64,000 nucleotides of DNA from Armatimonadota bacterium (GCA_013314775.1 JABUFB010000011.1:9144-73143); one strand, 5' to 3'; positions 16,826 through 46,047 are shown, counted from the first letter of the stretch. Made by a program: numbers and translations. Notes: generated by a model from the sequence alone, not told the origin.

Positions 16826-17431
16826 TCAGAAGGCTTCGTCTGGTTTCCAGACTTCCCAGACGCGGCCCACGAGGTCCGGGCCGGGGCTCAGGGTGGCCTT
16901 GCCCGGCTGCCAGCCCGAAGGCGTGGCCTCTCCAGTTTCGCGCACACGCTGGAAAGCCTGCAACTGGCGGATGAGCTCGGACACGTTCCGGCCGACGGAG
17001 GGGGTGAGAATCTCCATCGCCTGGATGATCCCATCCGGGTCGATGATGAAGCGCCCGCGGTTGTGCAGGCCCGCTACGGCATCATAGACACCGTACACCC
17101 GGCCGATTGCGCCCGTGGGGTCGGCAACCATGGGGTACGGTATGCCGCCTTCCACCATTTTCGACAGTTCGACTTCGTCCCAGATCTTCGCGGTGAAATG
17201 CTTGTCGGTGCTCACGGCGAGGACTTCTGCATCCATCCCGGCAATCTCATTGTACTTGACGGCGACCGCCGCCAGCTCCGTCGGTCATACGAAGGTGAAT
17301 GCAGCGGGGTAGAAACACATCACCACCCACTTCGGGCGGTACTCGGACAGCTTCAGGGTCTTGAACTCGCCACGATGGTACGCAACAGCCTCAAAGTCAG
17401 GGGCCTCCTTGCCGATGGTCGCCACTTTCAT
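16826..17431 (-). CDS. prxU: Selenocysteine-containing peroxiredoxin (AhpC/Prx1-type scaffold; UGA at 17285-17287 read as Sec)
   Basis: Two track ORFs (17285-17542 and 16826-17236) are in the same frame. The joined translation reads '...[14 protein letters not shown]-[TGA][27 protein letters not shown]...', which is the canonical FTFVCPTE active site with TGA in place of the peroxidatic Cys codon. ATG 17431 is preceded by AAGGAG; the alternative start at 17542 adds an Ala-rich 37-aa extension. Confidence 0.8.
17258..17282 (-). promoter_or_regulatory. Candidate bacterial SECIS hairpin immediately 3' of the in-frame UGA
   Basis: The minus-strand RNA is UGA-CC-GACGG-A-GCUG-GCGG-CGG(U)C-G-CCGUC. 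It has a 5-bp lower stem (GACGG/CCGUC), a short upper helix with a possible bulged U, and a G-rich apical loop. The structure starts 3 nt after the UGA. It was folded by eye only. Confidence 0.45.
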
Positions 17432-17746
17432 CGCTGAACTCCTTGCCGGTGCGGCAGCTGCCGCTTCTGTTGCGAGTTCCTTCTCCGCGCCCAGTGGACC
17501 GGCCGCGGCTTCGACACAGCCTTTCTTCTTTTCGTCAGCCATAGAACCACATCCTCATGTCGATCTGGGCTGGTAAAAACGACACGACAAGGTGCTAATT
17601 CGCCGGGCGAGCGGTTCACTCCTTGCGTGACGCAGGCAGTTGAGGGAACACCGGCTGACCTGGAGCAATAGACAGGGTGCGATCGAAGATGGAGGAGTTG
17701 TGCGCGATGTGAGGCGAGACGCCGCCGGAGTTGCGTGAATTGAGTC

Positions 17747-18301: not shown

Positions 18302-18397
18302 ATGCCAAAGAACCGGCTCCAGTCCAACCGGGCTGGGACACTGCGCCAAGGACATCGACATTACCCGCCATCACATCAGGAGGCATTGCAATACCCC

Positions 18398-19351
18398 ATG
18401 ACACCCCGAGAGCGTTTCATCGCGGCGCTGGAGCGCAGGCCACTGACAGGCCGCGTGCCCCACTTCGAACTTGTCTTCTTCCTCACCATGGAGGCCTTCG
18501 GCAAGGTCCACCCAAGCCACCGCAACTACGGCCAATGGGACCAGATGGAAGAGAAGGAGCGCCGCCTGCACATCGCGGACATGGCCGACCTTTACATCGC
18601 CACTGCTGAGCGGTTCGAGCACAGCGCCATCTTCCTGCACCCAAACCCGGGCCGGCTGGAGAGCGTCTTGCAGCTTATCGACGCCGTCCGGGAGCGATCA
18701 GGCGACCGGTATTTCCTGATGATGCACGGAGACGCCACCTTCAGCATCCCCGGCGGCGGCGCCATGCAGGAGTTCGCTTACCGCATGGTGGACGACGCCG
18801 ACGGGCTCAAGGCCCAGGCCGCGGCCATGGTGGATGGGCAACTCGCGCACCTCGAGCGCCTGCGTGCCCATGGAGGGCTTGACGGTCTGGCGCTTTGCGC
18901 AGACTACTGCCTCAACACAGGCCCATTCCTGAGCCCGGCTCAGTTCAGCGAGTTCGTGGCGCCGTATCTCGCCAGGCTGATCCAGGGACAGCGCGACATG
19001 GGGTTTTACGTGATCAAGCACACCGACGGGAACATCATGCCGATCATCGACCAGCTTGTGCAGTGCAACCCGCACGCGCTCCACTCCATCGACCCGCAGG
19101 CCGGCGTGGATATCGCTGAAGTGAAGCGGCTCTACGGCAACCGCCTGTGCATTATCGGGAACGTGAACTGCGGGCTCCTTGACACTGGGACGGAGGAGGA
19201 AGTCCGTGAGTCATGCAGGTACGCGCTGCGCCACGGAATGCCCGGCGGAGGGTATATCTTCTCCACCAGCAACTGCATCTACACGGGCATGCGGCTCTCG
19301 CGCTATGAGTTGATGCTGGACGTCTGGCGGCAGGAGGGCAATTATTCTTAG
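18398..19351 (+). CDS. Uroporphyrinogen decarboxylase (URO-D) family protein (MtaA/CmuA-like methyltransferase fold)
   Basis: ATG 18398 was verified, with AGGAGG at 18378-18383. The translation 'MTPRERFIAALERRPLTGRVPHFE...IKHTDGNIMPIIDQL...IDPQAGVDI...IIGNVNCG' is typical of URO-D family enzymes. Confidence 0.7.
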   Translation: MTPRERFIAALERRPLTGRVPHFELVFFLTMEAFGKVHPSHRNYGQWDQMEEKERRLHIADMADLYIATAERFEHSAIFLHPNPGRLESVLQLIDAVRERSGDRYFLMMHGDATFSIPGGGAMQEFAYRMVDDADGLKAQAAAMVDGQLAHLERLRAHGGLDGLALCADYCLNTGPFLSPAQFSEFVAPYLARLIQGQRDMGFYVIKHTDGNIMPIIDQLVQCNPHALHSIDPQAGVDIAEVKRLYGNRLCIIGNVNCGLLDTGTEEEVRESCRYALRHGMPGGGYIFSTSNCIYTGMRLSRYELMLDVWRQEGNYS

Positions 19352-36270: not shown

Positions 36271-37050
36271 ATGAGGGTTCTCGTAACCGGAGCAGCCGGC
36301 AGACTGGGGCGCAAGCTGGCGAAGGCGTTGGACGCTGAGCATGACCTGGTGCTGACTGACGTGGCACGGCTGGATGATGCGCGTTTTGTCCCACTGGATG
36401 TGACTGACCTTGTGGCGGCGCGCACTGCCGTTGCAGGCTGTGACGCTGTCGTCCACATGGCCATTCTCGACTGGCCACCCTGTAGCGCCCGAGAGGCTCT
36501 GCGATACGCCCCCGCGTCCATCCAGGTTCACGCCACCGGGACCTGCAACATGCTGCAAGCCGCACTCGAGGGAGACGTGAAGCGCTTCGTGCATATCAGC
36601 TCGGTGAGTGCACTGGACGGCCTGCCGGCCGACACCCACGCGGATTCCCAGACCCGGCACTACAGCAACTCCATCTACGGCCTGACCAAGGGGTTTGGCG
36701 AGGACATCTGCCGCATGTTCCACTGCAACTTCGGGCTGCCAATTGCGGTCCTGCGGCTGGGGACGATCTACCTGCCTGAGGGCGATGGGGCCTGGATCGG
36801 GAACGTGTTCATCCCGGATGTCACGAAGCAGAATCCCCTGGCGCCGGCGTCGTCGCGTGTGCATGCTGATGACGTGGTCCGCGCCATCGCGCTGGCCCTG
36901 CATGTTACCGATCCCGCGTACTCGCTTGTGCACATTGTGGGGGCGGATTCTGGAGGTCGCTGGGACTTGGCAGAAGCCAGACTGGACCTGGGCTGGGAGC
37001 CCCGATATGCCTTCGGCCCGGACGGCCTGCCGCGCGCACAACAGGGATGA
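36271..37050 (+). CDS. NAD-dependent epimerase/dehydratase family protein
   Basis: ATG 36271 was verified. 'MRVLVTGAAGRLG' is a GxxGxxG Rossmann motif and 'YGLTKGFGE' is a YxxxK motif. Confidence 0.8.
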   Translation: MRVLVTGAAGRLGRKLAKALDAEHDLVLTDVARLDDARFVPLDVTDLVAARTAVAGCDAVVHMAILDWPPCSAREALRYAPASIQVHATGTCNMLQAALEGDVKRFVHISSVSALDGLPADTHADSQTRHYSNSIYGLTKGFGEDICRMFHCNFGLPIAVLRLGTIYLPEGDGAWIGNVFIPDVTKQNPLAPASSRVHADDVVRAIALALHVTDPAYSLVHIVGADSGGRWDLAEARLDLGWEPRYAFGPDGLPRAQQG

Positions 37051-37080
37051 ATTGGCGCCACGTTTTCACCCTCGGGAGCA

Positions 37081-37608
37081 TCAGCTGCCCGACCACACAG
37101 CCAGGCCGATCAGGCCGCAGGCGACCACCACAATCCCCGCGTCGACGCGCTTCCAAAGGAGCGCGCCCAGCGCCAGGACGGCCAGCAGCGCCTGGGGGAG
37201 AGTACCGCAACTGTTGCGCGCAATCGGGACGGCCGCCGCCACGATAAGCCCGACAACCCCGGGACGCACACCTTTGACAAACGCCATCACCCGCTTGTTT
37301 CCCTGCAACCGGGAAAGCCGGTTTGAGGCGAGCACGGTCATCACGAAGGAGGGCAGAAAAATGCAGATGGTCGCCAGTGCCGCGGCCACTACCCCCCCCA
37401 CTTTGTAGCCCACGAAGCTTGCGGTCACCAGTACCGGGCCTGGGGTCATCTGGCCAAGAGCAACGGCATCCACGAACTCCTGCTGGGTGAGCCAATGGTA
37501 CCTGTCCACCACGTCCGCTTGCATGAGCGGGATCATCACCAGCCCGCCGCCAAACACAAGGGCCCCCACGCGCAGGCAGACCAGGCAAAGCTGAAAGACC
37601 TCGTTCAC
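37081..37608 (-). CDS. Chromate transporter family protein, half-size (short-chain CHR)
   Basis: 'FGGGLVMIPLMQADVV...WLTQQEFVDAVALGQMTPGPV' is the CHR signature. The GTG start overlaps the upstream TGA (GTGA at 37605-37608). Confidence 0.8.
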   Translation of the reverse strand: MNEVFQLCLVCLRVGALVFGGGLVMIPLMQADVVDRYHWLTQQEFVDAVALGQMTPGPVLVTASFVGYKVGGVVAAALATICIFLPSFVMTVLASNRLSRLQGNKRVMAFVKGVRPGVVGLIVAAAVPIARNSCGTLPQALLAVLALGALLWKRVDAGIVVVACGLIGLAVWSGS

Positions 37609-38147
37609 GGCTGGTCCTCCTCATGTTTCGGCCGATAGATAACCAGCCCGGCGAGACCGGCCGCGAGGATGACGATCGCGGGGTTCGCACCGGCTACTGT
37701 GGAGACTCCCGCGGCCAGAGCAATCAACAGGCCTGCCCGGTCTGTGACGTTCTTTGCACCCATCCGCCACGCAGTTGCCAGAATTATGGCCAGCACGGCG
37801 GGCCCAACCCCCATGAAGAACCCGGCGACTTGGGGGATCCTGCCGTGGGCGAGGTACAACGGCGTCAGCACCAGCATCAGCACGAACGCGGGCAGGATCA
37901 GCGCCACGGTGCTCACGATTGCACCCGGCAGACCTCGCAGCCTGAGCCCGATGTGGGTTGCGCAGTCCACCGCCACCGGTCCAGGGAGCACCTGACCGAT
38001 CGCGACGCCTTCTGCGAAGTCTTCCTCACTCACATCGTGGGACTTCTCCACCAACTGGTGCTGCATGAGCCCGACAAGAGCCATCGGTCCGCCAAATCCG
38101 GTGGCGCCGATGCGCAGGAACTTCGCGGCCAGAGTAGTCAATCTCAC
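37605..38147 (-). CDS. Chromate transporter family protein, half-size (short-chain CHR)
   Basis: The translation reads 'LRIGATGFGGPMALVGLMQHQLVEK...FAEGVAIGQVLPGPVAV'. I prefer GTG 38147, which overlaps the ThiF-like stop (GTGA), over the track start at 38219, which would overlap the upstream gene by 75 nt. Confidence 0.75.
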   Translation of the reverse strand: MRLTTLAAKFLRIGATGFGGPMALVGLMQHQLVEKSHDVSEEDFAEGVAIGQVLPGPVAVDCATHIGLRLRGLPGAIVSTVALILPAFVLMLVLTPLYLAHGRIPQVAGFFMGVGPAVLAIILATAWRMGAKNVTDRAGLLIALAAGVSTVAGANPAIVILAAGLAGLVIYRPKHEEDQP

Positions 38148-38902
38148 CCGATGAGACCTCCGCACGCCGGGCAGTCCACGCGGCGCGCAACGGGAATCCG
38201 GCACATCTCCACATCCCACACATCCACCTGAACCAGATCCTCTACCGTGTCGCAGTCGCAGCCCGCAAGTATCTTCAGTGCCGCCGCAACCTGCAGCGAG
38301 GCGATTATATTCACCACCGGCGCGATCACACCTGCCGTAGCGGCCGTCTCGCTGGAATCGCGGTCCGGCTCAGTGCAGTAAAGGCAGCACAGGCACGCGT
38401 CTCGCCCGGGGCGGATCACCTTGGTCAGCCCGTAGGAGCCGGACACAGCCCCGTAGATGAAGGGGATGTCGGCCTCGCAGGCTGCCCGGTTCAGGGCGAA
38501 CTTGGCCGCGAAGTTGTCCACTCCGTCGATGATCAGATCCGTGCCAGCGGCCAGTTCGGCGACATTGTCCGAGTCGAGGCGCGCGACAATGGGCTCGATA
38601 GCCACCCGGGAGTTGCAGGCTCGGAGCTTCTCTGCAGCCGCATGGACCTTGGGTTGCCCCGCGGCGACATCGGTCTCGTCATAGAGCGACTGTCTCTGAA
38701 GGTTGGATAGTTCAACGGTGTCGTGATCGACCAGGCGCACAGACACCCCGGCGCGAACCAGCATGCCGGCCGCGTTGGTGCCAAGCGCGCCCACTCCGGC
38801 CACCAGTACAAGCTTGCCACACAGCCCTGCCTGCCCAGCCTCGCCTACCGGCCCGAACAGTATCTGCCGTTCATACCGTTCCATGCCCTGCATTAGCGCC
38901 AT
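38144..38902 (-). CDS. ThiF/MoeB/HesA family E1-like adenylyltransferase (paralog 2, canonical motifs)
   Basis: The motifs 'VAGVGALGTNAAGML' (GxGxxG), 'VDHDTVELSNLQRQ' and 'DLIIDGVDNF' are present. Two CxxC pairs ('CLCC', 'CPAC') are also present. There is no rhodanese domain. ATG 38902 was verified. Confidence 0.85.
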   Translation of the reverse strand: MALMQGMERYERQILFGPVGEAGQAGLCGKLVLVAGVGALGTNAAGMLVRAGVSVRLVDHDTVELSNLQRQSLYDETDVAAGQPKVHAAAEKLRACNSRVAIEPIVARLDSDNVAELAAGTDLIIDGVDNFAAKFALNRAACEADIPFIYGAVSGSYGLTKVIRPGRDACLCCLYCTEPDRDSSETAATAGVIAPVVNIIASLQVAAALKILAGCDCDTVEDLVQVDVWDVEMCRIPVARRVDCPACGGLIG

Positions 38903-38937
38903 ACGATCCTTCGCCTTTCTTGCCCCGCGAAGCCCAT

Positions 38938-39213
38938 TTACGCCCCAGCGACCGGGGGCACTATTGACACCACGGCGCCGTCCCGCAGTGGCGTGGCAAG
39001 ACCATCAAGATCGTGGATATCTCGTCCGTCCACGAAAACGCGGACGAAAGACTTCAGTTCACCGGCTTCGTCATACAGCGAGCCCTGCACACCCGGGAAT
39101 GCGGCCACCAGCTCCATCAAGGCGTCGTTTACGCTGCCGGCGGCAGTCGTGAGGGTCTTCTGGTGGTTCGTGTGCCTGCGCAATGGAGTGGGCAGTTTGA
39201 TGACTGCGGGCAT
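38938..39213 (-). CDS. MoaD/ThiS-family ubiquitin-like small protein ending in ...PPVAGA
   Basis: The 91-aa protein has an ATG at 39213 after a GGAGGT RBS. The C-terminal 'VRVFVDGRDI...DGAVVSIVPPVAGA' closely resembles the MoaD/SAMP-type 'FPPVSGG' tail. The terminal codons GGG GCG TAA were read directly from the sequence. Confidence 0.75.
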   Translation of the reverse strand: MPAVIKLPTPLRRHTNHQKTLTTAAGSVNDALMELVAAFPGVQGSLYDEAGELKSFVRVFVDGRDIHDLDGLATPLRDGAVVSIVPPVAGA

Positions 39214-39228
39214 GGGTGGACCTCCGCT

Positions 39229-39978
39229 TCAGCTTGCGTCGCCGCAGACGGGGCAGTCCCGGCGGCGGTGGATGGAGTAGACGTCGAAACTCATATCCTC
39301 CCCGTCGTACACGAGGAGCCTTCCGGTGAGTGGCTCGCCGTACCCGGTGAGAACCTTCACGGCCTCCAGCGCCGTCAGTGCTCCGAGGCTTCCCGACAGG
39401 GCTCCCAGCACACCAAAGCCCATGGGGTCCCACCAGTCCGGAACTTCCGGCACGAGGCACTCCAGGCAGGGCGTGTCGGGCGGCACGATGGCGGTGATCT
39501 GCGCTTCCATGCCGTTCATGCCGCTGTCGATCATAGGCTTGCCTTGTCGCCAGCATTCTCGGTTGAGGATCAGGCGTTCGGTGAAATCCGGCGACGTGTC
39601 GCAGACGATGTCCACCTGGGACACCCAATCTGCGGCGTTCTCCTCGCTTGCGTTGGCAGCATACGCCACGACTTCAAGGTCCGGGTTGAAGCGCAGCAGC
39701 GTCTCCTGAGCCTGGGGGGCCCTCGGTTTGCCAATGCCGTCGCCTCGCATGAGAATCTGGCGGTTCAGATTCGATGGCGTCAGGTCTCCTGCGTGGGCGA
39801 TGACGAGCTTCCCGATGCCCGCCGCCGCAAGCCAGATCGCAGTCGGGCCACCCAAACCGCCCAGGCGTGTCACCAGAGCCGACGAGTTGCGAAGCTTCGC
39901 CTGGGCCTCCACCCCAAACCCTGGAATCTGAATCTGCCGCTTGTACTTCTCCAACTCGAACTCGGTCAGTTCGAACAA
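39229..39978 (-). CDS. ThiF/MoeB/HesA family E1-like protein (paralog 1, divergent nucleotide-binding motif)
   Basis: 'YKRQIQIPGFG', 'GLGGLGG', 'SNLNRQ' and two CxxC pairs ('CLEC', 'CPVC') are present. 'IAHAGDLTPSNL' replaces the canonical 'DxDxVxxSNL'. The apparent start is TTG 39978. Confidence 0.75.
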   Translation of the reverse strand: MFELTEFELEKYKRQIQIPGFGVEAQAKLRNSSALVTRLGGLGGPTAIWLAAAGIGKLVIAHAGDLTPSNLNRQILMRGDGIGKPRAPQAQETLLRFNPDLEVVAYAANASEENAADWVSQVDIVCDTSPDFTERLILNRECWRQGKPMIDSGMNGMEAQITAIVPPDTPCLECLVPEVPDWWDPMGFGVLGALSGSLGALTALEAVKVLTGYGEPLTGRLLVYDGEDMSFDVYSIHRRRDCPVCGDAS

Positions 39979-40014
39979 AACGATACACTCCCGTCTTCAG
40001 CAGCGGTTCGGGCG

Positions 40015-40935
40015 CTAATCCGGTGCGTGCGAGGGCCTGCTCAAGAGCCCCCACTGAGCCGCACCGAAGGCGAACACGGAGAACACCAGCATGATCAACG
40101 CAAGACCCACCGCGGTGTCTACGTCGGACTGCATCAGGCTGAAGATCGCCAGCGGGGCGGTCTGTGTGCGCCCCGGGAAGCTTCCGGCGAACAGCACCGT
40201 CGCGCCGAACTCGCCCATCGCCCGGGCCCAGCAGGTGAGAATGCCGGCAAGGATGCCGCTTCTCGCAAGTGGCAGGGTCACCAGCCGGTAGGTCGCCAGG
40301 CGACTGTAGCCGAGGGTCCACGCGGCTTCCTCAAGGGAGCGTGGGACCTGCTCGATGGCGGCCTTCGCGATGCGCACCAGAAAGGGCGAAGACACCACGA
40401 ATTGGGCGATCACGACAGCGGGGAAGGTGAATGAGAGCGGATGCCCGGCGTCAGCCAGGAAATGCCCCAGTATCCCGCGCCGACCCCAGACGAGTATCAG
40501 CGCGACACCCATCACGAGCGGCGGCAAGGCGATGGGCAACTCGATCAGCGAGTTCATCAATCGCTTGCCCCGGAAATGAACGCGCGCCAGGCAGAGGGCC
40601 GTAGGCAGCCCGAGCAGGATCGCAAAGCCGGTGGACAACACGCTGGCCTGCAAGGTCAGGGCCAACGTTCGCCGGAATTCTTCGATTGCCTCGGGACTAA
40701 GGAGGCGCTGCAGCGGGGCGTAGAAGAACAGGCCGGCAAGGGGGCCGACCGCGAGAACCACATACAGCGTCGCGATGCCAACAAGCAGGACCCCGGCCAG
40801 GCCTCGATCCAGATGCACGGTGTGTTCGGCAAAGGTAGATATCAGCGTCCGTCTGGCCGGAGACGAGGACAGCTCAAGCTGCTCTGCCCCGCTCTCCCAG
40901 TCTCGTTCCGCGCTTCCGATGAGGGCATCCTCCAT
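40015..40935 (-). CDS. modB: ABC transporter permease, molybdate/tungstate/sulfate (ModB/CysT-like) type
   Basis: 'EEAAWTLGYSRLATYRLVTLPLARSGILAG' is the EAA loop. 'GEFGATVLFAG' and about 6 TM segments are also present, as is typical of ModB-type permeases. Confidence 0.7.
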   Translation of the reverse strand: MEDALIGSAERDWESGAEQLELSSSPARRTLISTFAEHTVHLDRGLAGVLLVGIATLYVVLAVGPLAGLFFYAPLQRLLSPEAIEEFRRTLALTLQASVLSTGFAILLGLPTALCLARVHFRGKRLMNSLIELPIALPPLVMGVALILVWGRRGILGHFLADAGHPLSFTFPAVVIAQFVVSSPFLVRIAKAAIEQVPRSLEEAAWTLGYSRLATYRLVTLPLARSGILAGILTCWARAMGEFGATVLFAGSFPGRTQTAPLAIFSLMQSDVDTAVGLALIMLVFSVFAFGAAQWGLLSRPSHAPD

Positions 40936-40938
40936 GCT

Positions 40939-41793
40939 CTACTGCGGCTCCTGTCGGTGTACCGTATAGCCGTGCTCCTTGAAACTGCTCTGCGCTTCCT
41001 CTGCAGTCAGGAACTCAATGAAGGCCTTCGCAGCTTCCGGCTGCTTCGACCATTTGATCACAGCGGCGGGGATGTTCCGGGGCCGGGCGATTCCGGCCGG
41101 CAGGGCTACACCCTCCACCTTCTCGGGGTACTGGCGGGGCCAGGCGTCCCACCCGATCACCGCGTCTGCCTCGCCGAGCAGGAGCGTATTCAACACGTCT
41201 TCGCAATTGCCGGCGTAGGACACGATGCGCGGCTCGACCTTGTCCCAGAGCCCCTCTGCCTGGAGCATCTGCTGTGCGATGTCGCCGAGGCACACCGCCT
41301 TGATGTCCCCGATGACTACTCGCAGGCCATCCCGCGCGAGGTCTTCCAGTCCCTGGATGTCCTTCGGATTCCCCTTCGCCACGCAGATCGTGGGCACGAG
41401 ATCAACCAGTGGCGTGCGGGTATCCTTCAGCACTGCGCCCTTCGCTTCGGCTTTGTCCATAAAGTCATCCGAGCCCGGGATGTATACGTCTCCGTACTGC
41501 TCCTGCGTGAACTGGGTCAGCACAGCACCGGACCCGCCGAAAGTGATGTCGACCTTGACGCCAGAACGCGCCTCGTAGACGCTGGCGAGTTGCTCCAGCG
41601 CGGGCTTCGAAGCGGCACCAGCGAAAACCGTGATTGCGTCGGCCGGGCGCTGCATATCTGCGGGGTCGGCGTGCTCAGGCGCGGCTGCAATCACCCGCTC
41701 TGCACTCTCCCGGGGAGCCTGACAACCACCGAGCACCGCAATGCCCAGTAGTGAGATTGCTGTGACGACAAGGGCGAGTCGGGCGCGTACCAA
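40939..41793 (-). CDS. modA: Oxyanion (molybdate/tungstate-type) ABC transporter substrate-binding lipoprotein
   Basis: 'ITVFAGAASKPALEQLASVYE...VDITFGGSGAVLTQ' is ModA/WtpA-like. The lipobox is 'LLGIAVLGGC'. The likely start is TTG 41793, 5 nt after GGAGGA. The upstream part of the track ORF (to 41967) is not protein-like. Confidence 0.7.
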   Translation of the reverse strand: MVRARLALVVTAISLLGIAVLGGCQAPRESAERVIAAAPEHADPADMQRPADAITVFAGAASKPALEQLASVYEARSGVKVDITFGGSGAVLTQFTQEQYGDVYIPGSDDFMDKAEAKGAVLKDTRTPLVDLVPTICVAKGNPKDIQGLEDLARDGLRVVIGDIKAVCLGDIAQQMLQAEGLWDKVEPRIVSYAGNCEDVLNTLLLGEADAVIGWDAWPRQYPEKVEGVALPAGIARPRNIPAAVIKWSKQPEAAKAFIEFLTAEEAQSSFKEHGYTVHRQEPQ

Positions 41794-41937
41794 TGGGGTC
41801 CTCCGATCGACACGATCGCGCGCTGTTTGCCCGGTCTGCTGTTGCCGGCTGCCGCGCGGCCTTGCACAGAGAAGTGCGAGCCCTGTCCGCGGCTGCAACA
41901 GGTACCGATCCGAAGCGTCCGCGGCGAACCCTGGTCT

Positions 41938-41962
41938 AATTCCTACTGTAATAATAGGGATT
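41938..41962. promoter_or_regulatory. AT-rich imperfect palindrome (candidate operator/promoter core) in the divergent intergenic region
   Basis: AATTCCTA(41938-41945)-CTGTAATAA-TAGGGATT(41955-41962) pairs at 7 of 8 positions. It is the only AT-rich island between modA and the beta-helix gene. Confidence 0.35.
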
Positions 41963-42282
41963 AGCAACGTGCAATGAGGGAAGGAAACAGGAAGAATAGC
42001 GCAAGATCACCGTCCGCCCCGGCCGTCCGAACAGACCTGTGCAGTCATAACTGCGCAACCCTGGGCGTCTGCGCATTTCCTACCGCCCGCGCGCGATGGC
42101 AAGAAGCAAATCGCCTGCAGACAAGAATGACTTCGGCCAGTGCAAACGTCTTTCGCGCATGCCCGACTGTGCGCTATTATTCCACTGGCGCATATCATGA
42201 GGATCCGTACTCGCATCGGCGCTGTACTCAAGTCCTCGTGCCCAAGAGGTCGGATCCCGTCGCAGTCTGGGGGACGCATGCC

Positions 42283-44727
42283 ATGAAAGCTTCTGGCGGA
42301 TGGGTACTCTTAGCCTCAGCTCTTCTCCTGTCCCAGGTTCAGGCGCAGATCGTTGACGACTTCTCCCAGGGGGGGTGGCGGCTGTTTGAGTCCACCCCGG
42401 GGACCATCAAAGCGGAGGCGGGAAGCCTGTATCTGCAGGATGCCGACGGGGAGCCGGCGTGGGTCACTGCAAGCAAGGTGTTCACTGTCGACGTCGACAA
42501 GACGCCGTTTTTCGTGGTCGAGGTCGCATCCATCTCGGATGGCGGAACGGTCAAGTTGATCCGGCGCGATCCCTATGACAAGCGGGTCTCGGTTGAGATG
42601 GACAGGCCCGGGCTGTATGCGGTGGACATGCGCAGCCAGTATGGGTGGACAGGATCAATTGACATCGAGACATGCCTCTATGCCAATGGTGACGGAGAGA
42701 ACATTACCTACAGGTACGTAAAGTTCGCAGAGAAGCTGACTGAGGCCGAGCAGGCGCTCATCAAAGAGCGGGAAGCCGGCCCGAACGTCAGGCTTGAGGT
42801 GCCCCCGTTCGCCGTGGTACCGCTTTTCAATGCCTGTTCCGTGTACTTCACCAGTCCCAGGCTGGATTCGCTGCAGATGCGGTTCCGCGAGAAGGGCGGC
42901 CAATGGCAGCCGGCATTTCCCCCCGCCTACTTTCAAGAAGACGGCATGTACCGTGGCAGTATCGTCAATCTGGCGGAGAACACCACGTACGAACTGGAGC
43001 TTTCCGACGGCGAGGGGAACATCCTGGCCAACACCAACTTCACCACGTGGAGTTCCGATGTGCCCATCGCGAAAACGGTGGTGCTGGACGAGGCCAGCTT
43101 CGACGGGCACCTGGTGATCACCGACGCGGGATCGCGCGACGGCTGGATCCGGTACACAGCGCGTGAGGGCTTTGTGTTGCGCAATGACCGGCAGGGCCCG
43201 CTCATTGAACTCAGGAGAGCAAAGCATGTCATTCTGGACGGCCTGACGTTGCGCGGGGGACTGAAGGAGGCCATCGCCATCGACAAATGCGAGCACGTCC
43301 GCATCGCCAACTGCGACATCGCGGGCTGGGGCAGGATCGGTACGCAGCGGTTCGACCTGGACGGCAAGTTCTACACGCAAGCCGGCGAGGCGATCAACTG
43401 GGACAGCGCTATCCTCGTCCGCAAGAGCCTCGGCACGGTGGTGGAGCGCTGCTACATCCACGACCCGGTGAACACCGCCAACCCCTGGTACTGCTCGCAT
43501 CCCGCAGGCCCGCAGGCAGTGGGCATCGACAAGCCTCAGTCTACGGTCATTCGCTATAACGACTTCATCGGCAGCGACCTGCACCGGTGGAACGACGCGA
43601 TCGAGGGCGCTGGCAATTTCGACCTGAATGGCGGCTTCAACCGGGACGCCGACATCTACGGGAACTTCATGTGCTTCGCTAATGACGACGCCCTCGAGAT
43701 AGACGGGGGGCAGACCAACGTCCGGGTCTTCCGCAACAGGTTCGAAGGTTGCCTGTGCGGCGTCAGCATCCAGGGGTGCATGTCCAGCCCGTCATACGTA
43801 TTCCAGAACCTGCTGGTGAACATGGGCGACGAGCGCGGGGTGGGCGGACAGACGATTAAGACCTCCTCTTATGCAAACGGCCCCAGCGCTGTCTCCTTCA
43901 TCTTCAACAATACGTGCTATGGCGATTCCGGAGACCTCAACCTGCCGGGCAACTTGCGCATTGTCGCGAAGAACAACATTTTCGCCGGAAGGTCTGCCGT
44001 GACCGGCCGCAAGCGTTCGCCACAGTCGGAGATCGACTACAACCTGCTGTCCACCGAAGAGGATGTGCGCGACCCCAACAGCATCCACGGCGAACCCGGC
44101 TTCACGGACGCCGAAGCGGGCTTGTACGAGCCGACAGGCACATCGAAGGCCGTGGGCAGCGGCACGGAAATACCCAACTTTGCGCCCTCGGCAGACGGCA
44201 AAGTGGACATGGGTGCCATTGCTGCCGGTTCCGGCGCGACGCTACCCGAGCGCCCGATCCCTGTGCGGCTGGACCGATACCACCTCCGCTTCTCACCGGA
44301 TGAAGTACGGGCGGGTAGCACGAAGACCATTGTGACCACGGTGGAAGACCGAGACTTCTCCAGCCCCTTCCGCATCGCCAAGAACGATGCATTCGACTGG
44401 TTCGCCGTGACACCGGAGAAAGGCGTCCTGCAGTCCGGGCAGACGGTGCAGCTCTCCGTAACCCTCATCCCGGACAGGATGCAAGCGCGGAAGGTGTACC
44501 GGGGAGCTTTCCTCATCAGGCTCCCCAACGGCTTCTCCCGCCCGGTCACGGTGTACGCGAAGACCGACTTTGTGCCTCCTGTCAAGCCGGACAGCAAAGG
44601 TGGGGTGCATTCCGCGAGAGTAGGTGGGTTTTGGGGCGGATATGGCAGGAGCCGTCCTCTTGGAGCGAGAATGGAGTTGCGCTCACAAACACCAGTCTCA
44701 CGGGAGGACGGCCCACATGTCTATTAG
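42283..44727 (+). CDS. Secreted right-handed parallel beta-helix protein (pectate-lyase fold; possible GH141/PL-like) with its C-terminus replaced by IS-derived sequence
   Basis: ATG 42283 was verified and the signal peptide is 'MKASGGWVLLASALLLSQVQAQ'. Beta-helix repeats are present ('ILDGLTLRGG', 'VRIANCDIAGWG', 'NNIFAGRS'). From about 44602 the reading frame runs into the IS inverted repeat, giving the tail 'GGVHSARVGGFWGG...'. Confidence 0.6.
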   Translation: MKASGGWVLLASALLLSQVQAQIVDDFSQGGWRLFESTPGTIKAEAGSLYLQDADGEPAWVTASKVFTVDVDKTPFFVVEVASISDGGTVKLIRRDPYDKRVSVEMDRPGLYAVDMRSQYGWTGSIDIETCLYANGDGENITYRYVKFAEKLTEAEQALIKEREAGPNVRLEVPPFAVVPLFNACSVYFTSPRLDSLQMRFREKGGQWQPAFPPAYFQEDGMYRGSIVNLAENTTYELELSDGEGNILANTNFTTWSSDVPIAKTVVLDEASFDGHLVITDAGSRDGWIRYTAREGFVLRNDRQGPLIELRRAKHVILDGLTLRGGLKEAIAIDKCEHVRIANCDIAGWGRIGTQRFDLDGKFYTQAGEAINWDSAILVRKSLGTVVERCYIHDPVNTANPWYCSHPAGPQAVGIDKPQSTVIRYNDFIGSDLHRWNDAIEGAGNFDLNGGFNRDADIYGNFMCFANDDALEIDGGQTNVRVFRNRFEGCLCGVSIQGCMSSPSYVFQNLLVNMGDERGVGGQTIKTSSYANGPSAVSFIFNNTCYGDSGDLNLPGNLRIVAKNNIFAGRSAVTGRKRSPQSEIDYNLLSTEEDVRDPNSIHGEPGFTDAEAGLYEPTGTSKAVGSGTEIPNFAPSADGKVDMGAIAAGSGATLPERPIPVRLDRYHLRFSPDEVRAGSTKTIVTTVEDRDFSSPFRIAKNDAFDWFAVTPEKGVLQSGQTVQLSVTLIPDRMQARKVYRGAFLIRLPNGFSRPVTVYAKTDFVPPVKPDSKGGVHSARVGGFWGGYGRSRPLGARMELRSQTPVSREDGPHVY

Positions 44728-46047
44728 CCAGCAGAGCCGCGCAGACCTTCAGTCGCGTATCAGAGAATGGGTGGACCAGCAGGCGTCCGCGGGGGACGTG
44801 ACGGAGTTGGAGGAGTTCGCTTTGGAAGTCAGCCAGTGTGTGGGGCAGGCGGTGGTGGAGCATGGTCTGAGCCGTGTGGACCCGACAATGGGCTATCGCA
44901 AGAGCAGCATTCCATGCGACTGTGGTCGCAAGGCGCGGTTCGTCAATTACCGCGAGCGGACGCTTGGGACGATCTATGGGCCGGTTGTCGTGAAGCGGGC
45001 TTACTACCACTGTAAGCACTGCCGAAGGGGTCATGTGCCGTGGGACCGTGATCAGGGGATTAGCACGTTGATGTGGAGCCCGATGGCGAAGTGTCTTGTG
45101 GCAGAGACGATTGGTCGGCTGACGTATGGCGAAGGGGTATCGTTGCTGAAGCGGCTGCTTGGCTTCTGCATCGAAGAGAGCGGTTCGGAGCGGGTGATGG
45201 ATGAAGTGGGCGGGCGTCTGCGCGGGGAGGATGCGGAGTTGATGCAAAGCTACGATGTGGAGCAGATCTCGCCGCTGGTGCAAGACGCCCCACAGCGGCT
45301 GTACGTGAGCATGGACGGCGCCAGCGCGCACATTGACGGGGCGTTCCATGAGGTCAAAACGGGGGTGGTGTATGAAGGCCTTACGGGCACGGACGGGATC
45401 GATAAGGCGCGCAATATGCGCTACGTGGCGGCCCAGGAGCCTGCGGAGAAATTCGGCCATCGGCTGTACGTGGCGGCGGCCCAGTCGGGGGTCGCCCAGG
45501 CTTCGACAGTGGTGGTGATCGGCGACGGGGCGGAGTGGATCTGGAACCTGTCGGCGCACCACTATCCGGGGGCGATTGAGATCGTGGACTATTGGCACGC
45601 GTGCGAGCACATCCACGCGCTGGCGAAAGACTACTATGGTGAGGGGGATCTGAATGGCAAACGGTGGGCCAATGACCATTGCCGGTGGCTCAAACAGCGC
45701 GGTCCGGGGACTTTGCTGCGGGCTTTGAAACGGATGCAACCGAAGACCGATGCCCAGCGCGAGGCAGTCGCCCGCGAGACACGATACTTCACGAACAACC
45801 ACCAGCGCATGCAGTACGCCCGTTACCGGGCGGCGGGGTTGATGATTGGCAGCGGGCCGGTGGAGGCGGGCTGTAAGACGGTAGTGGGCGCACGTCTGAA
45901 GCGCAGCGGAATGCGCTGGTCGGGCCGAGGTGCCGACGCGGTGCTGGCGGTGCGCTGTGCCCTGCTAAGCGGAGAGCAAAATCGAGTCCTTCGTGTGGCC
46001 AAAGCAGCATGAAACGTGAATCTACCTACAAAACTGAGTCGCACCCC
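44602..46047 (+). mobile_element. Insertion sequence, ISKra4-like, about 1.45 kb
   Basis: The termini are GGGGTGC (44602-44608) and GCACCCC (46041-46047). The imperfect inverted repeats follow the pattern GGGGTGC-N12-TAGGT on both ends. They enclose a single transposase ORF. No target-site duplication is visible. Confidence 0.6.
44717..46012 (+). CDS. ISKra4-family-like transposase
   Basis: ATG 44717 follows GGGAGGA. The translation 'YYHCKHCRRGHVPWDRDQG...DGASAHIDGAFHEVKTGVVY...IGDGAEWIWN...IVDYWHACEHI' shows the zinc-ribbon plus DDE-like pattern I associate with ISKra4/UPF0236 transposases. Confidence 0.65.
   Translation: MSISQQSRADLQSRIREWVDQQASAGDVTELEEFALEVSQCVGQAVVEHGLSRVDPTMGYRKSSIPCDCGRKARFVNYRERTLGTIYGPVVVKRAYYHCKHCRRGHVPWDRDQGISTLMWSPMAKCLVAETIGRLTYGEGVSLLKRLLGFCIEESGSERVMDEVGGRLRGEDAELMQSYDVEQISPLVQDAPQRLYVSMDGASAHIDGAFHEVKTGVVYEGLTGTDGIDKARNMRYVAAQEPAEKFGHRLYVAAAQSGVAQASTVVVIGDGAEWIWNLSAHHYPGAIEIVDYWHACEHIHALAKDYYGEGDLNGKRWANDHCRWLKQRGPGTLLRALKRMQPKTDAQREAVARETRYFTNNHQRMQYARYRAAGLMIGSGPVEAGCKTVVGARLKRSGMRWSGRGADAVLAVRCALLSGEQNRVLRVAKAA

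What the first reader, a model, noticed from the sequence alone, without database searches (positions are those of the whole stretch)
37081..41793. Seven-gene operon fusing oxyanion transport with a ubiquitin-like protein and two E1-like enzymes (ModA-ModB-E1-Ubl-E1-ChrA-ChrA)
- All seven genes are on the minus strand with tiny gaps or overlaps: 3, 36, 15 and 35 nt, then two GTGA start/stop overlaps at 38144-38147 and 37605-38608-side junction 37605-37608. This implies co-transcription and translational coupling.
- The content is unusual: a molybdate/tungstate-type binding lipoprotein and permease, a MoaD/ThiS-like Ubl sandwiched between two ThiF/MoeB paralogs, and a pair of half-size chromate-ion-transporter (CHR) proteins.
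- None of the usual partners of a sulfur-carrier Ubl is present (MoaE, ThiG/ThiH, CysM, TtuA, JAMM peptidase).
- I do not know a described pathway with this gene set.
- One hypothesis is a dedicated sulfur-relay or thiolation module coupled to uptake or handling of a group-6 oxyanion (Mo, W or Cr). Another is a Ubl-conjugation-type regulator of the transporter.
Basis: partly seen in the sequence, partly recalled or inferred. Interest (0 to 1): 0.7.

Follow-up and report, generated by a model that had tools for sequence, protein, structure and literature searches.

The report
Molybdate transport operon with HesA-like module
A conserved seven-gene operon in Armatimonadota bacteria joins molybdate uptake to an unusual three-protein module: a relative of the unexplained nitrogen-fixation protein HesA, a ubiquitin-fold protein ending in Gly-Ala instead of Gly-Gly, and a normal activating enzyme; this gives a new way to study how cells handle molybdenum together with sulfur.

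Summary
The seven minus-strand genes are real, at the stated coordinates and with the stated spacing.

- **Conservation.** The E1a-Ubl-E1b core recurs in at least nine Armatimonadota lineages. It always lies next to ModA/ModB-type genes, half-size CHR genes, or both, in three different gene orders. The linkage is therefore selected, not chance.
- **The two E1s are not equivalent.**
  - E1b has every canonical MoeB/ThiF catalytic residue.
  - E1a keeps the fold (pLDDT 96, TM 0.9 to MoeB/ThiF) but has invariant replacements of the ATP/Mg residues (D62H, D64G, K86R, D130P). It falls in one clade with cyanobacterial nif HesA.
  - Other members of that clade, in Verrucomicrobiota, Planctomycetota and another Armatimonadota lineage, also sit beside ModA-type ABC transporters.
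- **The Ubl.** It is CysO/MoaD-like but ends in Gly-Ala in every lineage retrieved. That change inactivates MoaD experimentally. No MoaE, CysM, ThiG or JAMM gene is nearby.
- **Best reading.** This is a molybdenum-plus-sulfur handling module downstream of molybdate import, related to the unsolved function of HesA, not an ordinary MoaD/MoeB pair. The mechanism is inferred, not shown.
- **Verdict.** A new variant of a known kind, of moderately high interest.

The parts
40939..41793 (-). ModA-type oxyanion-binding lipoprotein (284 aa; the longest ORF runs on to 41967)
   Evidence: SBP_bac_11 at E 5e-59 and TIGR01256 modA at 103.6 bits against a cut-off of 62.5. No WtpA or TupA match. All the best PDB matches are ModA structures. 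TTG start with GGAGG upstream. The gene call on the identical contig gives 284 aa.
40015..40935 (-). ModB-type ABC permease (306 aa)
   Evidence: BPD_transp_1. TIGR01581 (NifC-like Mo porter) at 218.8 bits (cut-off 210.3) and TIGR02141 modB at 199.4 bits (cut-off 182.6).
39229..39978 (-). E1a: HesA-like ThiF-family protein with a rewired active site (249 aa)
   Evidence: ThiF at E 8e-54, but below every NCBIfam cut-off. G38R, D62H, D64G, K86R and D130P (E. coli MoeB numbering) are invariant in 120 close homologues. It is monophyletic with cyanobacterial HesA. AF2 pLDDT 96, TM 0.90-0.92 to ThiF/MoeB.
38938..39213 (-). Ubl: CysO/MoaD/SAMP1-like beta-grasp protein ending ...PPVAGA (91 aa)
   Evidence: ThiS family at 43.8 bits; NF041918 SAMP1 at 60.4 bits (cut-off 60). 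Best PDB match is M. tuberculosis CysO, 3dwg_C. The terminal codons GGG GCG TAA were read directly. The Gly-Ala end is conserved in all 13 Armatimonadota copies retrieved.
38144..38902 (-). E1b: canonical MoeB/ThiF-type adenylyltransferase (252 aa)
   Evidence: ThiF at E 2e-60; best models are PRK12475 and TIGR02356. R14, the G-x-G-A-x-G loop, D62, D64, R73, K86, D127, D130, N131 and the four zinc cysteines are all present. R135K and C187A are fixed in 43/43 of its group, against R and C in the longer relatives.
37605..38147 (-). ChrN: N-terminal-type half-size CHR transporter (180 aa); its start overlaps the E1b stop (GTGA)
   Evidence: Chromate_transp at E 7e-44. It matches positions 1-166 of TIGR00937. 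Overlap read; gene call.
37081..37608 (-). ChrC: C-terminal-type half-size CHR transporter (175 aa); its start overlaps the ChrN stop (GTGA)
   Evidence: Chromate_transp at E 1e-47. It matches positions 203-368 of TIGR00937. Overlap read.
41794..41973 (.). Divergent intergenic region upstream of modA; presumed promoter and regulatory region
   Evidence: An AT-richer stretch lies between modA and the plus-strand gene that starts at 41974. No Moco riboswitch or other Rfam family was found. No sigma-70 consensus match was found in this stretch, and matches in the scanned region were no more frequent than in shuffles.

Best explanation
This is a conserved Armatimonadota operon for acquiring molybdate (possibly tungstate) and processing it in the cytoplasm.

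**Transport**
- ModA (a lipoprotein) and ModB form the import channel.
- The ATPase ModC is encoded elsewhere in this lineage, but inside the cluster in sister lineages.
- ChrN and ChrC form a two-piece CHR oxyanion transporter. It is an optional accessory. Its most plausible role is to remove look-alike oxyanions such as chromate, or to balance oxyanion levels.

**Cytoplasmic module: E1a-Ubl-E1b**
- E1b is a canonical adenylyltransferase. It most likely activates the Ubl's unusual Gly-Ala C-terminus so that a cysteine-desulfurase persulfide can convert it to a thiocarboxylate.
- E1a is a HesA-like protein. It keeps the whole MoeB fold and the zinc site but has lost the ATP-ribose and Mg2+ aspartates in favour of invariant His, Arg, Pro and Glu residues.
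- I infer that E1a acts in a step where imported molybdenum meets carrier-bound sulfur. Examples would be forming or delivering a thio-molybdenum species, or handing molybdenum to an acceptor. This parallels the molybdate- and cystine-suppressible role of HesA in nitrogenase cofactor assembly.

**Shown versus inferred**
- Shown: the gene identities, the residue patterns, the clade membership and the conserved synteny.
- Inferred: which E1 acts on the Ubl, that a thiocarboxylate forms, the molybdenum-sulfur chemistry, and the direction and substrate of the CHR pair.
For: - **Conserved linkage in three gene orders.**
  - Order A: ModA-ModB-E1a-Ubl-E1b-ChrN-ChrC.
  - Order B: ModA-ModB-ModC-E1a-Ubl-E1b.
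  - Order C: ModC-DUF1003-E1a-Ubl-E1b-ChrN-ChrC-SBP-ModA-ModB.
- **E1a-like genes in other phyla also sit beside ModA-type ABC systems, without a Ubl or E1b.** This holds for Verrucomicrobiota, Planctomycetota and a second Armatimonadota lineage. Their binding proteins all pass the TIGR01256 cut-off.
- **E1a and HesA are related.**
  - They share G64 and R86 and both lack D62 and D130.
  - They form one clade in 32 of 40 bootstraps, with the signature columns removed.
  - The replacements are invariant, and a new invariant Glu134 appears, so the site is rewired, not decayed.
- **HesA genetics.** The mutant loses nitrogenase activity. It is rescued by high molybdate or cystine, and nitrate reductase is unaffected (PMC6361004).
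- **HesA-clade genes also neighbour ThiS-family genes elsewhere.** Examples are a cyanobacterial nif cluster and locus L093.
- **A terminal Gly-to-Ala change makes MoaD non-functional** (PMC4326299).
- **E1b carries R135K** at the residue that holds the carrier's tail in ThiF.
- **An Aminotran_5 cysteine-desulfurase-like gene** lies divergently next to the order-B loci.
Against: - No biochemical data exist for any of these proteins.
- The acceptor of the putative sulfur is not encoded nearby.
- E1a orthologues at 59-71% identity stand alone in three Armatimonadota lineages, with no transporter, clear Ubl or E1b beside them. E1a's role therefore does not strictly need this operon.
- E1a has Pro130 where HesA has His130, so the two may differ in function.
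- HesA's own mechanism is unknown, and its phenotype comes from diazotrophs, whereas no nif gene is present here.
- The tools cannot separate molybdate from tungstate, or from another oxyanion.
- I could not check whether the genome has MoaE or other Moco genes elsewhere.
Confidence: 0.45

Rival explanations
1. An ordinary molybdenum-cofactor supply operon. The Ubl is the genome's MoaD and E1b its MoeB. MoaE and the other Moco genes lie elsewhere. E1a is a side paralogue that serves another pathway.
For: - ModABC genes often sit beside Moco genes (general knowledge).
- E1b's nearest longer relatives are Bacillus-type MoeB, model PRK12475.
- The Ubl matches the archaeal MoaD-type model TIGR01687, but at 42.5 bits, below the 49.5 cut-off.
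Against: - The terminal Gly-Ala is conserved in every lineage, and G81A in E. coli MoaD or G82A in MoaX abolishes function.
- No MoaE, MoaC or MogA lies within about 10 kb in any triad locus.
- E. coli MoaD is not among the Ubl's PDB matches; CysO is the best match.
- E1a is the slowest-evolving gene of the cluster and is linked to ModA-type transporters on its own in other phyla.
- No Moco riboswitch is present.
Confidence: 0.22
2. E1a and E1b form a eukaryote-like heterodimeric E1. E1b is the catalytic subunit. E1a is a non-catalytic partner that supplies the arginine finger, as SAE1 does for SAE2, for one Ubl.
For: - E1a lacks D62 and D130 but keeps Arg14, the full fold and the zinc site.
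- The two genes flank the Ubl in every triad.
- E1b has a complete active site.
Against: - E1a orthologues and other HesA-clade members occur without any E1b nearby.
- E1a's replaced residues are invariant and not drifting, and a new conserved Glu134 appears, which suggests its own ligand site.
- Some clade members have Trp at position 14.
- No structural or interaction test could be run.
Confidence: 0.15
3. A CysO-type sulfur-assimilation module. The ABC system and the CHR pair import sulfate or thiosulfate, and the Ubl carries sulfur for cysteine or methionine synthesis.
For: - The Ubl's best structural relative is CysO.
- Distant relatives at 39-44% identity sit in clusters with two ThiF genes, PALP enzymes, a NIL domain and a JAB peptidase.
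- ModB also scores against the sulfate permease models, though below their cut-offs.
Against: - The binding protein passes the ModA model and matches sulfate or thiosulfate binders only at E of about 1e-3; its PDB matches are all ModA.
- No PALP enzyme, JAB peptidase or sulfate-reduction gene lies in any triad locus.
- The Ubl lacks the Gly-Gly end of the CysO-type relatives.
Confidence: 0.07
4. A Ubl-conjugation system that regulates the transporter, or an anti-phage E1/Ubl system.
For: Two E1-like genes and a Ubl are present. There are weak PADLOC matches to the E1 half of E1-E2 fusion proteins.
Against: - There is no E2, E3 or JAB/deubiquitinase gene.
- Neither E1 has a cysteine at the MoeB Cys187 position.
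- The Ubl has no PADLOC match, and the E1 matches cover only the generic adenylation domain.
- The neighbours are transporters and not defence genes.
Confidence: 0.03

Closest known systems
HesA of nif clusters (cyanobacteria, Paenibacillus, Frankia)
   Same: - E1a groups in one clade with cyanobacterial HesA.
- Both lack D62 and D130, and both have G64, R86, E134 and the four zinc cysteines.
- Both are tied to molybdenum: HesA by genetics (PMC6361004), E1a by synteny with ModA-type transporters.
- Both can neighbour a ThiS-family gene.
   Different: - There is no nif context here.
- E1a has His62, Pro130 and Arg38 where HesA has Arg62, His130 and Gly38.
- E1a is flanked by a Gly-Ala Ubl and a second, canonical E1.
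- HesA's own mechanism is unknown.
MoaD-MoeB (molybdopterin synthase sulfur carrier and its adenylyltransferase)
   Same: - E1b has all the MoeB catalytic and zinc residues.
- The Ubl has the ThiS/MoaD beta-grasp signature.
- The pair lies next to a molybdate transporter.
   Different: - The Ubl ends in Gly-Ala.
- No MoaE is nearby.
- E1b has R135K and lacks the C-terminal extension of about 90 aa found in its Bacillus-type relatives.
- A third, rewired E1 is present.
CysO-MoeZ-Mec-CysM and related thiocarboxylate-dependent Cys/Met pathways
   Same: The Ubl is most similar to CysO. Such clusters can also have two ThiF genes flanking the carrier (locus L051).
   Different: Those clusters carry PALP enzymes and a JAB peptidase, their carriers end in Gly-Gly (sometimes with an extension), and they have no ModA-type transporter.
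ModABC molybdate transporter
   Same: ModA and ModB pass the curated ModA and ModB models. Sister loci carry a ModC with a TOBE domain.
   Different: This version has no ModC anywhere in 64 kb. The transporter genes are in one operon with the E1-Ubl module and the CHR pair.
Short-chain CHR pairs (for example Bacillus subtilis Chr3N/Chr3C chromate efflux; recalled from memory, not checked here)
   Same: Two adjacent half-size Chromate_transp proteins are present, one matching the N-terminal half of full-length ChrA and one the C-terminal half.
   Different: - Scores are far below the ChrA/ChrB equivalog cut-offs (67-75 bits against 250).
- There is no chrB-type regulator.
- The pair is translationally coupled to an E1 gene.
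- Substrate and direction are unknown.

Membership tests
ModA (molybdate-binding protein of ModABC) | Matches the curated ModA model above its cut-off; periplasmic or lipoprotein binding-protein fold | tested here: met
   TIGR01256 at 103.6 bits (cut-off 62.5). No WtpA or TupA match at E<=0.01. The best PDB matches are ModA structures. A lipobox is present.
ModA (molybdate-binding protein of ModABC) | Binds molybdate or tungstate selectively over sulfate | not testable with these tools
   Needs ITC or crystallography. ModA proteins can also bind chromate (PMC9171197).
ModABC transporter | Complete set of binding protein, permease and ATPase | tested here: not met
   No ModC-like ATPase is present in the 64 kb window. 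ModC is present in the order-B and order-C loci.
MoaD (MPT synthase small subunit) | C-terminal Gly-Gly with a terminal glycine | tested here: not met
   The Ubl ends in VAGA in all 13 copies retrieved. G81A and G82A mutants are non-functional.
MoaD (MPT synthase small subunit) | Partner MoaE present | tested here: inconclusive
   No MoaE was found by tblastn in the window or in any triad locus. The rest of the genome could not be searched.
MoeB/ThiF adenylyltransferase (E1b) | Arg14, glycine-rich loop, Asp62, Arg73, Lys86, Asp130 and the Cys4 zinc site | tested here: met
   All are present in E1b and in 43/43 members of its group.
MoeB/ThiF adenylyltransferase (E1a) | Asp62, Lys86 and Asp130 for ATP/Mg2+ binding | tested here: not met
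   E1a has His62, Arg86 and Pro130, invariant in 119-120 of 120 close homologues. It scores below every NCBIfam cut-off. The fold itself is retained.
HesA | Groups with nif-cluster HesA to the exclusion of canonical MoeB/ThiF, and shares its derived active-site residues | tested here: met
   Monophyly in 32 of 40 NJ bootstraps. G64, R86 and E134 are shared, and D62 and D130 are lost in both. Positions 38, 62 and 130 differ in the residue used.
HesA | Located in a nif cluster and required for nitrogenase | tested here: not met
   No nif genes are present in the window or in the triad loci. E1a is therefore HesA-like, not HesA.
CysO-type sulfur carrier system | Gly-Gly carrier with a PALP sulfhydrylase (CysM or ThrC-like) and a JAMM peptidase | tested here: not met
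   None of these is present in the triad loci. They are present in the distant locus L051.
CHR (chromate ion transporter) family | Chromate_transp domain; two halves form a functional unit | tested here: met
   Pfam scores of 150 and 163 bits. The two proteins match the N-terminal and C-terminal halves of TIGR00937 respectively. Transport function was not tested.
Ubl conjugation or anti-phage E1-E2 systems | E2 domain, a catalytic cysteine on the E1, and a JAB peptidase | tested here: not met
   Only the generic E1 halves match PADLOC E1-E2 models. There is no E2 or JAB gene, and the Ubl has no match.

The most novel reading that the evidence does not exclude
HesA-like proteins are a widespread, unrecognised class of ThiF-fold enzymes. 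They no longer adenylate in the usual way. Instead they act on imported molybdate together with a ubiquitin-fold sulfur carrier, for example by making or delivering a thio-molybdenum species. On this reading, the Armatimonadota operon shows the complete system in one place: importer, dedicated carrier with a Gly-Ala end, its activating enzyme, and the HesA-like enzyme. It would also explain what nif HesA does.
Probability: 0.25. Interest if true: 0.85.

Novelty: new variant of a known kind. Interest (0 to 1): 0.66.

Why it matters
- **HesA.** It has been a required nitrogen-fixation gene of unknown function since 1990 (the date cited in PMC6361004), and it is part of the minimal nif sets used to engineer nitrogen fixation. 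Three findings here turn a vague "Mo and S related" phenotype into testable biochemistry:
  - its clade has a specifically rewired E1 active site;
  - its relatives sit beside molybdate ABC transporters in three non-diazotroph phyla;
  - in Armatimonadota it comes packaged with a dedicated ubiquitin-fold carrier and a canonical E1.
- **The Ubl.** A naturally conserved Gly-Ala C-terminus on a sulfur-carrier-type Ubl challenges the rule that these carriers need a terminal glycine.
- **The CHR pair.** Its coupling to ModAB suggests a link between molybdate uptake and handling of look-alike oxyanions.

Tried and rejected
- **Moco riboswitch.** Rfam on 36500-42500 at E<=1 gave only two sub-threshold, irrelevant matches.
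- **Promoter and terminator scan.** Counts did not differ from shuffled sequence.
- **Other neighbours from sister loci.** I searched the window for ModC, DUF1003 and the cysteine desulfurase seen there. None was found; only a distant URO-D homologue matched.
- **Anti-phage reading.** PADLOC gave only generic E1-domain matches.
- **First guess about E1a.** I first took it for the housekeeping MoeB of the phylum, because its orthologues at 59-71% identity stand alone. I dropped this once the invariant loss of D62 and D130 was seen.
- **Literature.** The search for a link between CHR transporters and molybdate gave only an indirect lead: ModA binds chromate. One search was wasted because the term 'ThiS' matched the word 'this'.
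- **Partner proteins after HesA-like genes in the PVC loci.** The 381-aa and 305-aa proteins have no Pfam match and are not similar to each other.

Full report
**1. Observation**

The region holds seven consecutive minus-strand ORFs. An identical public contig carries the same gene calls:

| Gene | Coordinates | Length |
|---|---|---|
| ModA | 40939-41793 | 284 aa |
| ModB | 40015-40935 | 306 aa |
| E1a | 39229-39978 | 249 aa |
| Ubl | 38938-39213 | 91 aa |
| E1b | 38144-38902 | 252 aa |
| ChrN | 37605-38147 | 180 aa |
| ChrC | 37081-37608 | 175 aa |

- The gaps of 3, 36, 15 and 35 nt follow from these coordinates.
- Both GTGA overlaps were read in the sequence.
- ModA starts at a TTG that follows a GGAGG.
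- Pfam and NCBIfam confirm every assignment. ModA passes TIGR01256 (103.6 bits against 62.5). ModB passes both TIGR02141 and the NifC-like TIGR01581.
- ModA's best solved relatives are all molybdate-binding proteins.
- The flanking genes are a convergent epimerase-family gene, a GH127 glycosidase and a divergent 917-aa gene. They are unrelated to the operon.
- The window has no ModC-like ATPase and no MoaE, MoaC or MogA.
- There is no Moco riboswitch.

**2. Is the arrangement conserved?**

The source is an Armatimonadota bacterium: a MAG contig shows the same seven genes at 83-96% identity. tblastn mapping of the seven proteins onto loci from genome and metagenome scans found E1a-Ubl-E1b in nine distinct lineages, with E1a identity of 70-96%. 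At least eleven further E1a/E1b pairs appear to share a contig, judged from matching contig lengths.

Three gene orders occur:
- **Order A** (the window and its close relatives): ModA-ModB-E1a-Ubl-E1b-ChrN-ChrC.
- **Order B**: ModA-ModB-ModC(TOBE)-E1a-Ubl-E1b, followed by a URO-D family gene. There is no CHR pair. An Aminotran_5 gene lies divergently upstream.
- **Order C**: ModC-DUF1003-E1a-Ubl-E1b-ChrN-ChrC-SBP-ModA-ModB.

Linkage that survives reshuffling argues for functional coupling. The CHR pair and ModC are each dispensable in some lineages. E1a is the slowest-evolving gene. Against locus L002 it is 84% identical, while the other four shared genes are 56-64% identical.

**3. The two E1s differ in kind**

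Both were aligned to E. coli MoeB, and the numbering below is MoeB's.

- **E1b**
  - It has Arg14, the glycine loop, Asp62, Asp64, Arg73, Lys86, Asp127, Asp130, Asn131 and the four zinc cysteines.
  - Its nearest relatives outside the phylum are 340-aa Bacillus-type MoeB proteins.
  - The Armatimonadota group has fixed R135K and C187A in 43 of 43 sequences.
  - Position 135 corresponds to ThiF Arg132, which holds the carrier's tail (PMC12596934).
- **E1a**
  - It has G38R, D62H, D64G, K86R and D130P. Each is found in 114-120 of its 120 closest homologues.
  - Its predicted structure is confident (pLDDT 96.1) and superposes on ThiF and MoeB at TM 0.90-0.92.
  - The scaffold and zinc site are therefore intact, but the ATP-ribose and Mg2+ ligands are gone.

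**4. E1a belongs to the HesA clade**

- An exhaustive search of 50%-identity representatives returned about 30 clusters among the top 150 with the same kind of signature.
- The named members come from Armatimonadota, Verrucomicrobiota, Planctomycetota and 'Deltaproteobacteria' MAGs.
- One member (P0398, about 47% identical to E1a) sits between nifW and hesB, downstream of nifB, nifE, nifN and nifX. Its relatives are cyanobacterial proteins, several of them named 'protein hesA'.
- All 120 of these HesA sequences have Arg62, Gly64 and Arg86, and His, Phe or Tyr at position 130.
- In a neighbour-joining tree of 116 sequences, built without the signature columns, all 43 sequences lacking both Asp62 and Asp130 form one clade in 32 of 40 bootstraps.
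- Residues specific to this clade are Gly44, His/Arg62, Gly64, Met77, Arg86, Pro/His130, Glu134, Met154, an inserted Trp183 and Phe188.
- This is a conserved alternative site, not decay. The new Glu134 beside Arg135 could even replace the lost acid, so catalysis cannot be excluded.

**5. HesA-like genes and molybdate transporters**

Outside the triad lineages, HesA-clade genes lie directly beside ModA-type ABC systems:
- in Verrucomicrobiota: SBP-permease-ATPase-ThiF;
- in a Mariniblastus MAG: the same order;
- in a second Armatimonadota lineage: ThiF-ArsP-SBP-SBP-permease.

All these binding proteins pass the ModA cut-off.

A rough estimate suggests this is not chance. A random gene lies within five genes of a modA-type gene with a probability of well under 1%. 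Here it happens in four deep lineages of roughly nine sampled. That estimate is inference, not a formal test.

HesA-clade genes also neighbour ThiS-family genes:
- one ending in Gly-Gly in the cyanobacterial nif locus;
- one with Gly-Gly plus an extension in L093.

Three Armatimonadota E1a orthologues stand alone. One of them has a weak, sub-threshold ThiS-like ORF 250 nt upstream.

**6. The Ubl**

- It is a ThiS/MoaD-family beta-grasp protein. Its closest solved relative is M. tuberculosis CysO, followed by SAMP1-type and MoaD-related proteins. E. coli MoaD is not among the matches.
- It ends in ...PPVAGA followed by TAA.
- All 13 Armatimonadota copies retrieved end in Gly-Ala, down to 47% identity.
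- More distant relatives end in AGG, with or without one extra residue. One such locus, L051, was examined and also carries PALP enzymes, a NIL domain and a JAB peptidase.
- Replacing the terminal Gly with Ala gives a non-functional carrier in E. coli MoaD and in M. tuberculosis MoaX (PMC4326299).
- The Gly-Ala end, the missing MoaE and the co-varying R135K in E1b together argue that this is not a standard MoaD-MoeB pair.

**7. Proposed mechanism**

- *Shown:* the identities, residue patterns, clade membership and synteny.
- *Established elsewhere:*
  - A Paenibacillus hesA mutant loses nitrogenase activity and is partly rescued by high molybdate or cystine. E. coli moeB and Klebsiella nifQ do not fully rescue it, and nitrate reductase is unaffected (PMC6361004).
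  - ModA can also bind chromate (PMC9171197).
- *Inferred:*
  - ModAB, with a ModC encoded elsewhere, imports molybdate or tungstate.
  - E1b adenylates the Gly-Ala Ubl, which then becomes a thiocarboxylate.
  - E1a acts where molybdenum meets this sulfur.
  - ChrN/ChrC handles look-alike oxyanions.
- *Alternatives:* an ordinary Moco supply operon, a heterodimeric E1, CysO-type sulfur assimilation, or Ubl conjugation. These are weighed in the rivals section. PADLOC gives only generic E1-domain matches.

**8. Novelty and limits**

- In the searchable literature I found no description of the HesA active-site signature, of HesA-like genes next to ModABC outside diazotrophs, of a Gly-Ala sulfur-carrier Ubl, or of this operon. 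That library is incomplete.
- The tree is a simple distance tree.
- Contexts were sampled and not surveyed exhaustively.
- The host genomes could not be searched for Moco genes.
- No interaction or activity was tested.

I rate this a new variant of known kinds (sulfur-carrier Ubl/E1 systems and HesA). If the HesA-like protein proves to be a molybdenum-sulfur enzyme, it would rate higher.

Noticed in passing
window 16826-17542 (-): A peroxiredoxin gene (AhpC-TSA plus 1-cysPrx_C) is interrupted by a single in-frame TGA exactly at the peroxidatic cysteine position (...[15 protein letters not shown]...). This makes it a candidate selenocysteine peroxiredoxin (PrxU-like) and probably not a pseudogene. 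A GC-rich hairpin starts about 14 nt after the UGA, but it is not significant against shuffled sequence.
   Followed up: partly
L090 1-12786 and L094 1-14879: In Verrucomicrobiota and Planctomycetota, the HesA-like gene lies in a larger shared cluster. The cluster holds a PQQ-beta-propeller/Laminin_G_3 protein, a MacB/FtsX-type ABC pair, a ModA-type ABC system, the ThiF gene, and then an unannotated 305-381 aa protein. The two unannotated proteins are not detectably similar to each other.
   Followed up: partly
L095 7001-8459: In a picocyanobacterial nif cluster the order is nifW-hesA-hesB, followed by an 89-aa ThiS-family gene ending in Gly-Gly (ThiS at 30.6 bits). This suggests that nif HesA may have its own ubiquitin-fold partner.
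   Followed up: partly
L051 9029-14038: A distant cluster also has two ThiF genes flanking a CysO-like Ubl: PALP, ThiF, a ThrC-like PALP with a zinc ribbon, ThiS (ending in Gly-Gly), NIL, ThiF, JAB. It is a thiocarboxylate-dependent Cys/Met-type cluster.
   Followed up: partly
L085 2992-5017 and L087 3029-5056: The order-B loci have a divergent trio just upstream of the transporter: an Aminotran_5 (cysteine-desulfurase-like) gene, a Biotin_lipoyl-Thioredoxin_3 fusion of 174 aa, and a 95-aa protein. This is a possible sulfur source. It is absent from the window.
   Followed up: partly
window 18302-19351 (+): A URO-D family gene about 19 kb from the operon is 30% identical to the URO-D family gene that directly follows E1b in the order-B loci. 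Its significance is unknown.
   Followed up: no
window 44624-46012 (+): A 462-aa ORF with a UPF0236 match (transposase-like) lies about 2.8 kb beyond the operon's upstream neighbour. A local rise in GC skew occurs at 44-46 kb.
   Followed up: no
L017 9528-9749: A 73-aa ORF lies 250 nt upstream of a 'stand-alone' E1a orthologue. It has a weak, sub-threshold ThiS match (E 0.008) and ends in ...VELFS with no glycine tail. It may be a degenerate beta-grasp partner or a chance match.
   Followed up: partly
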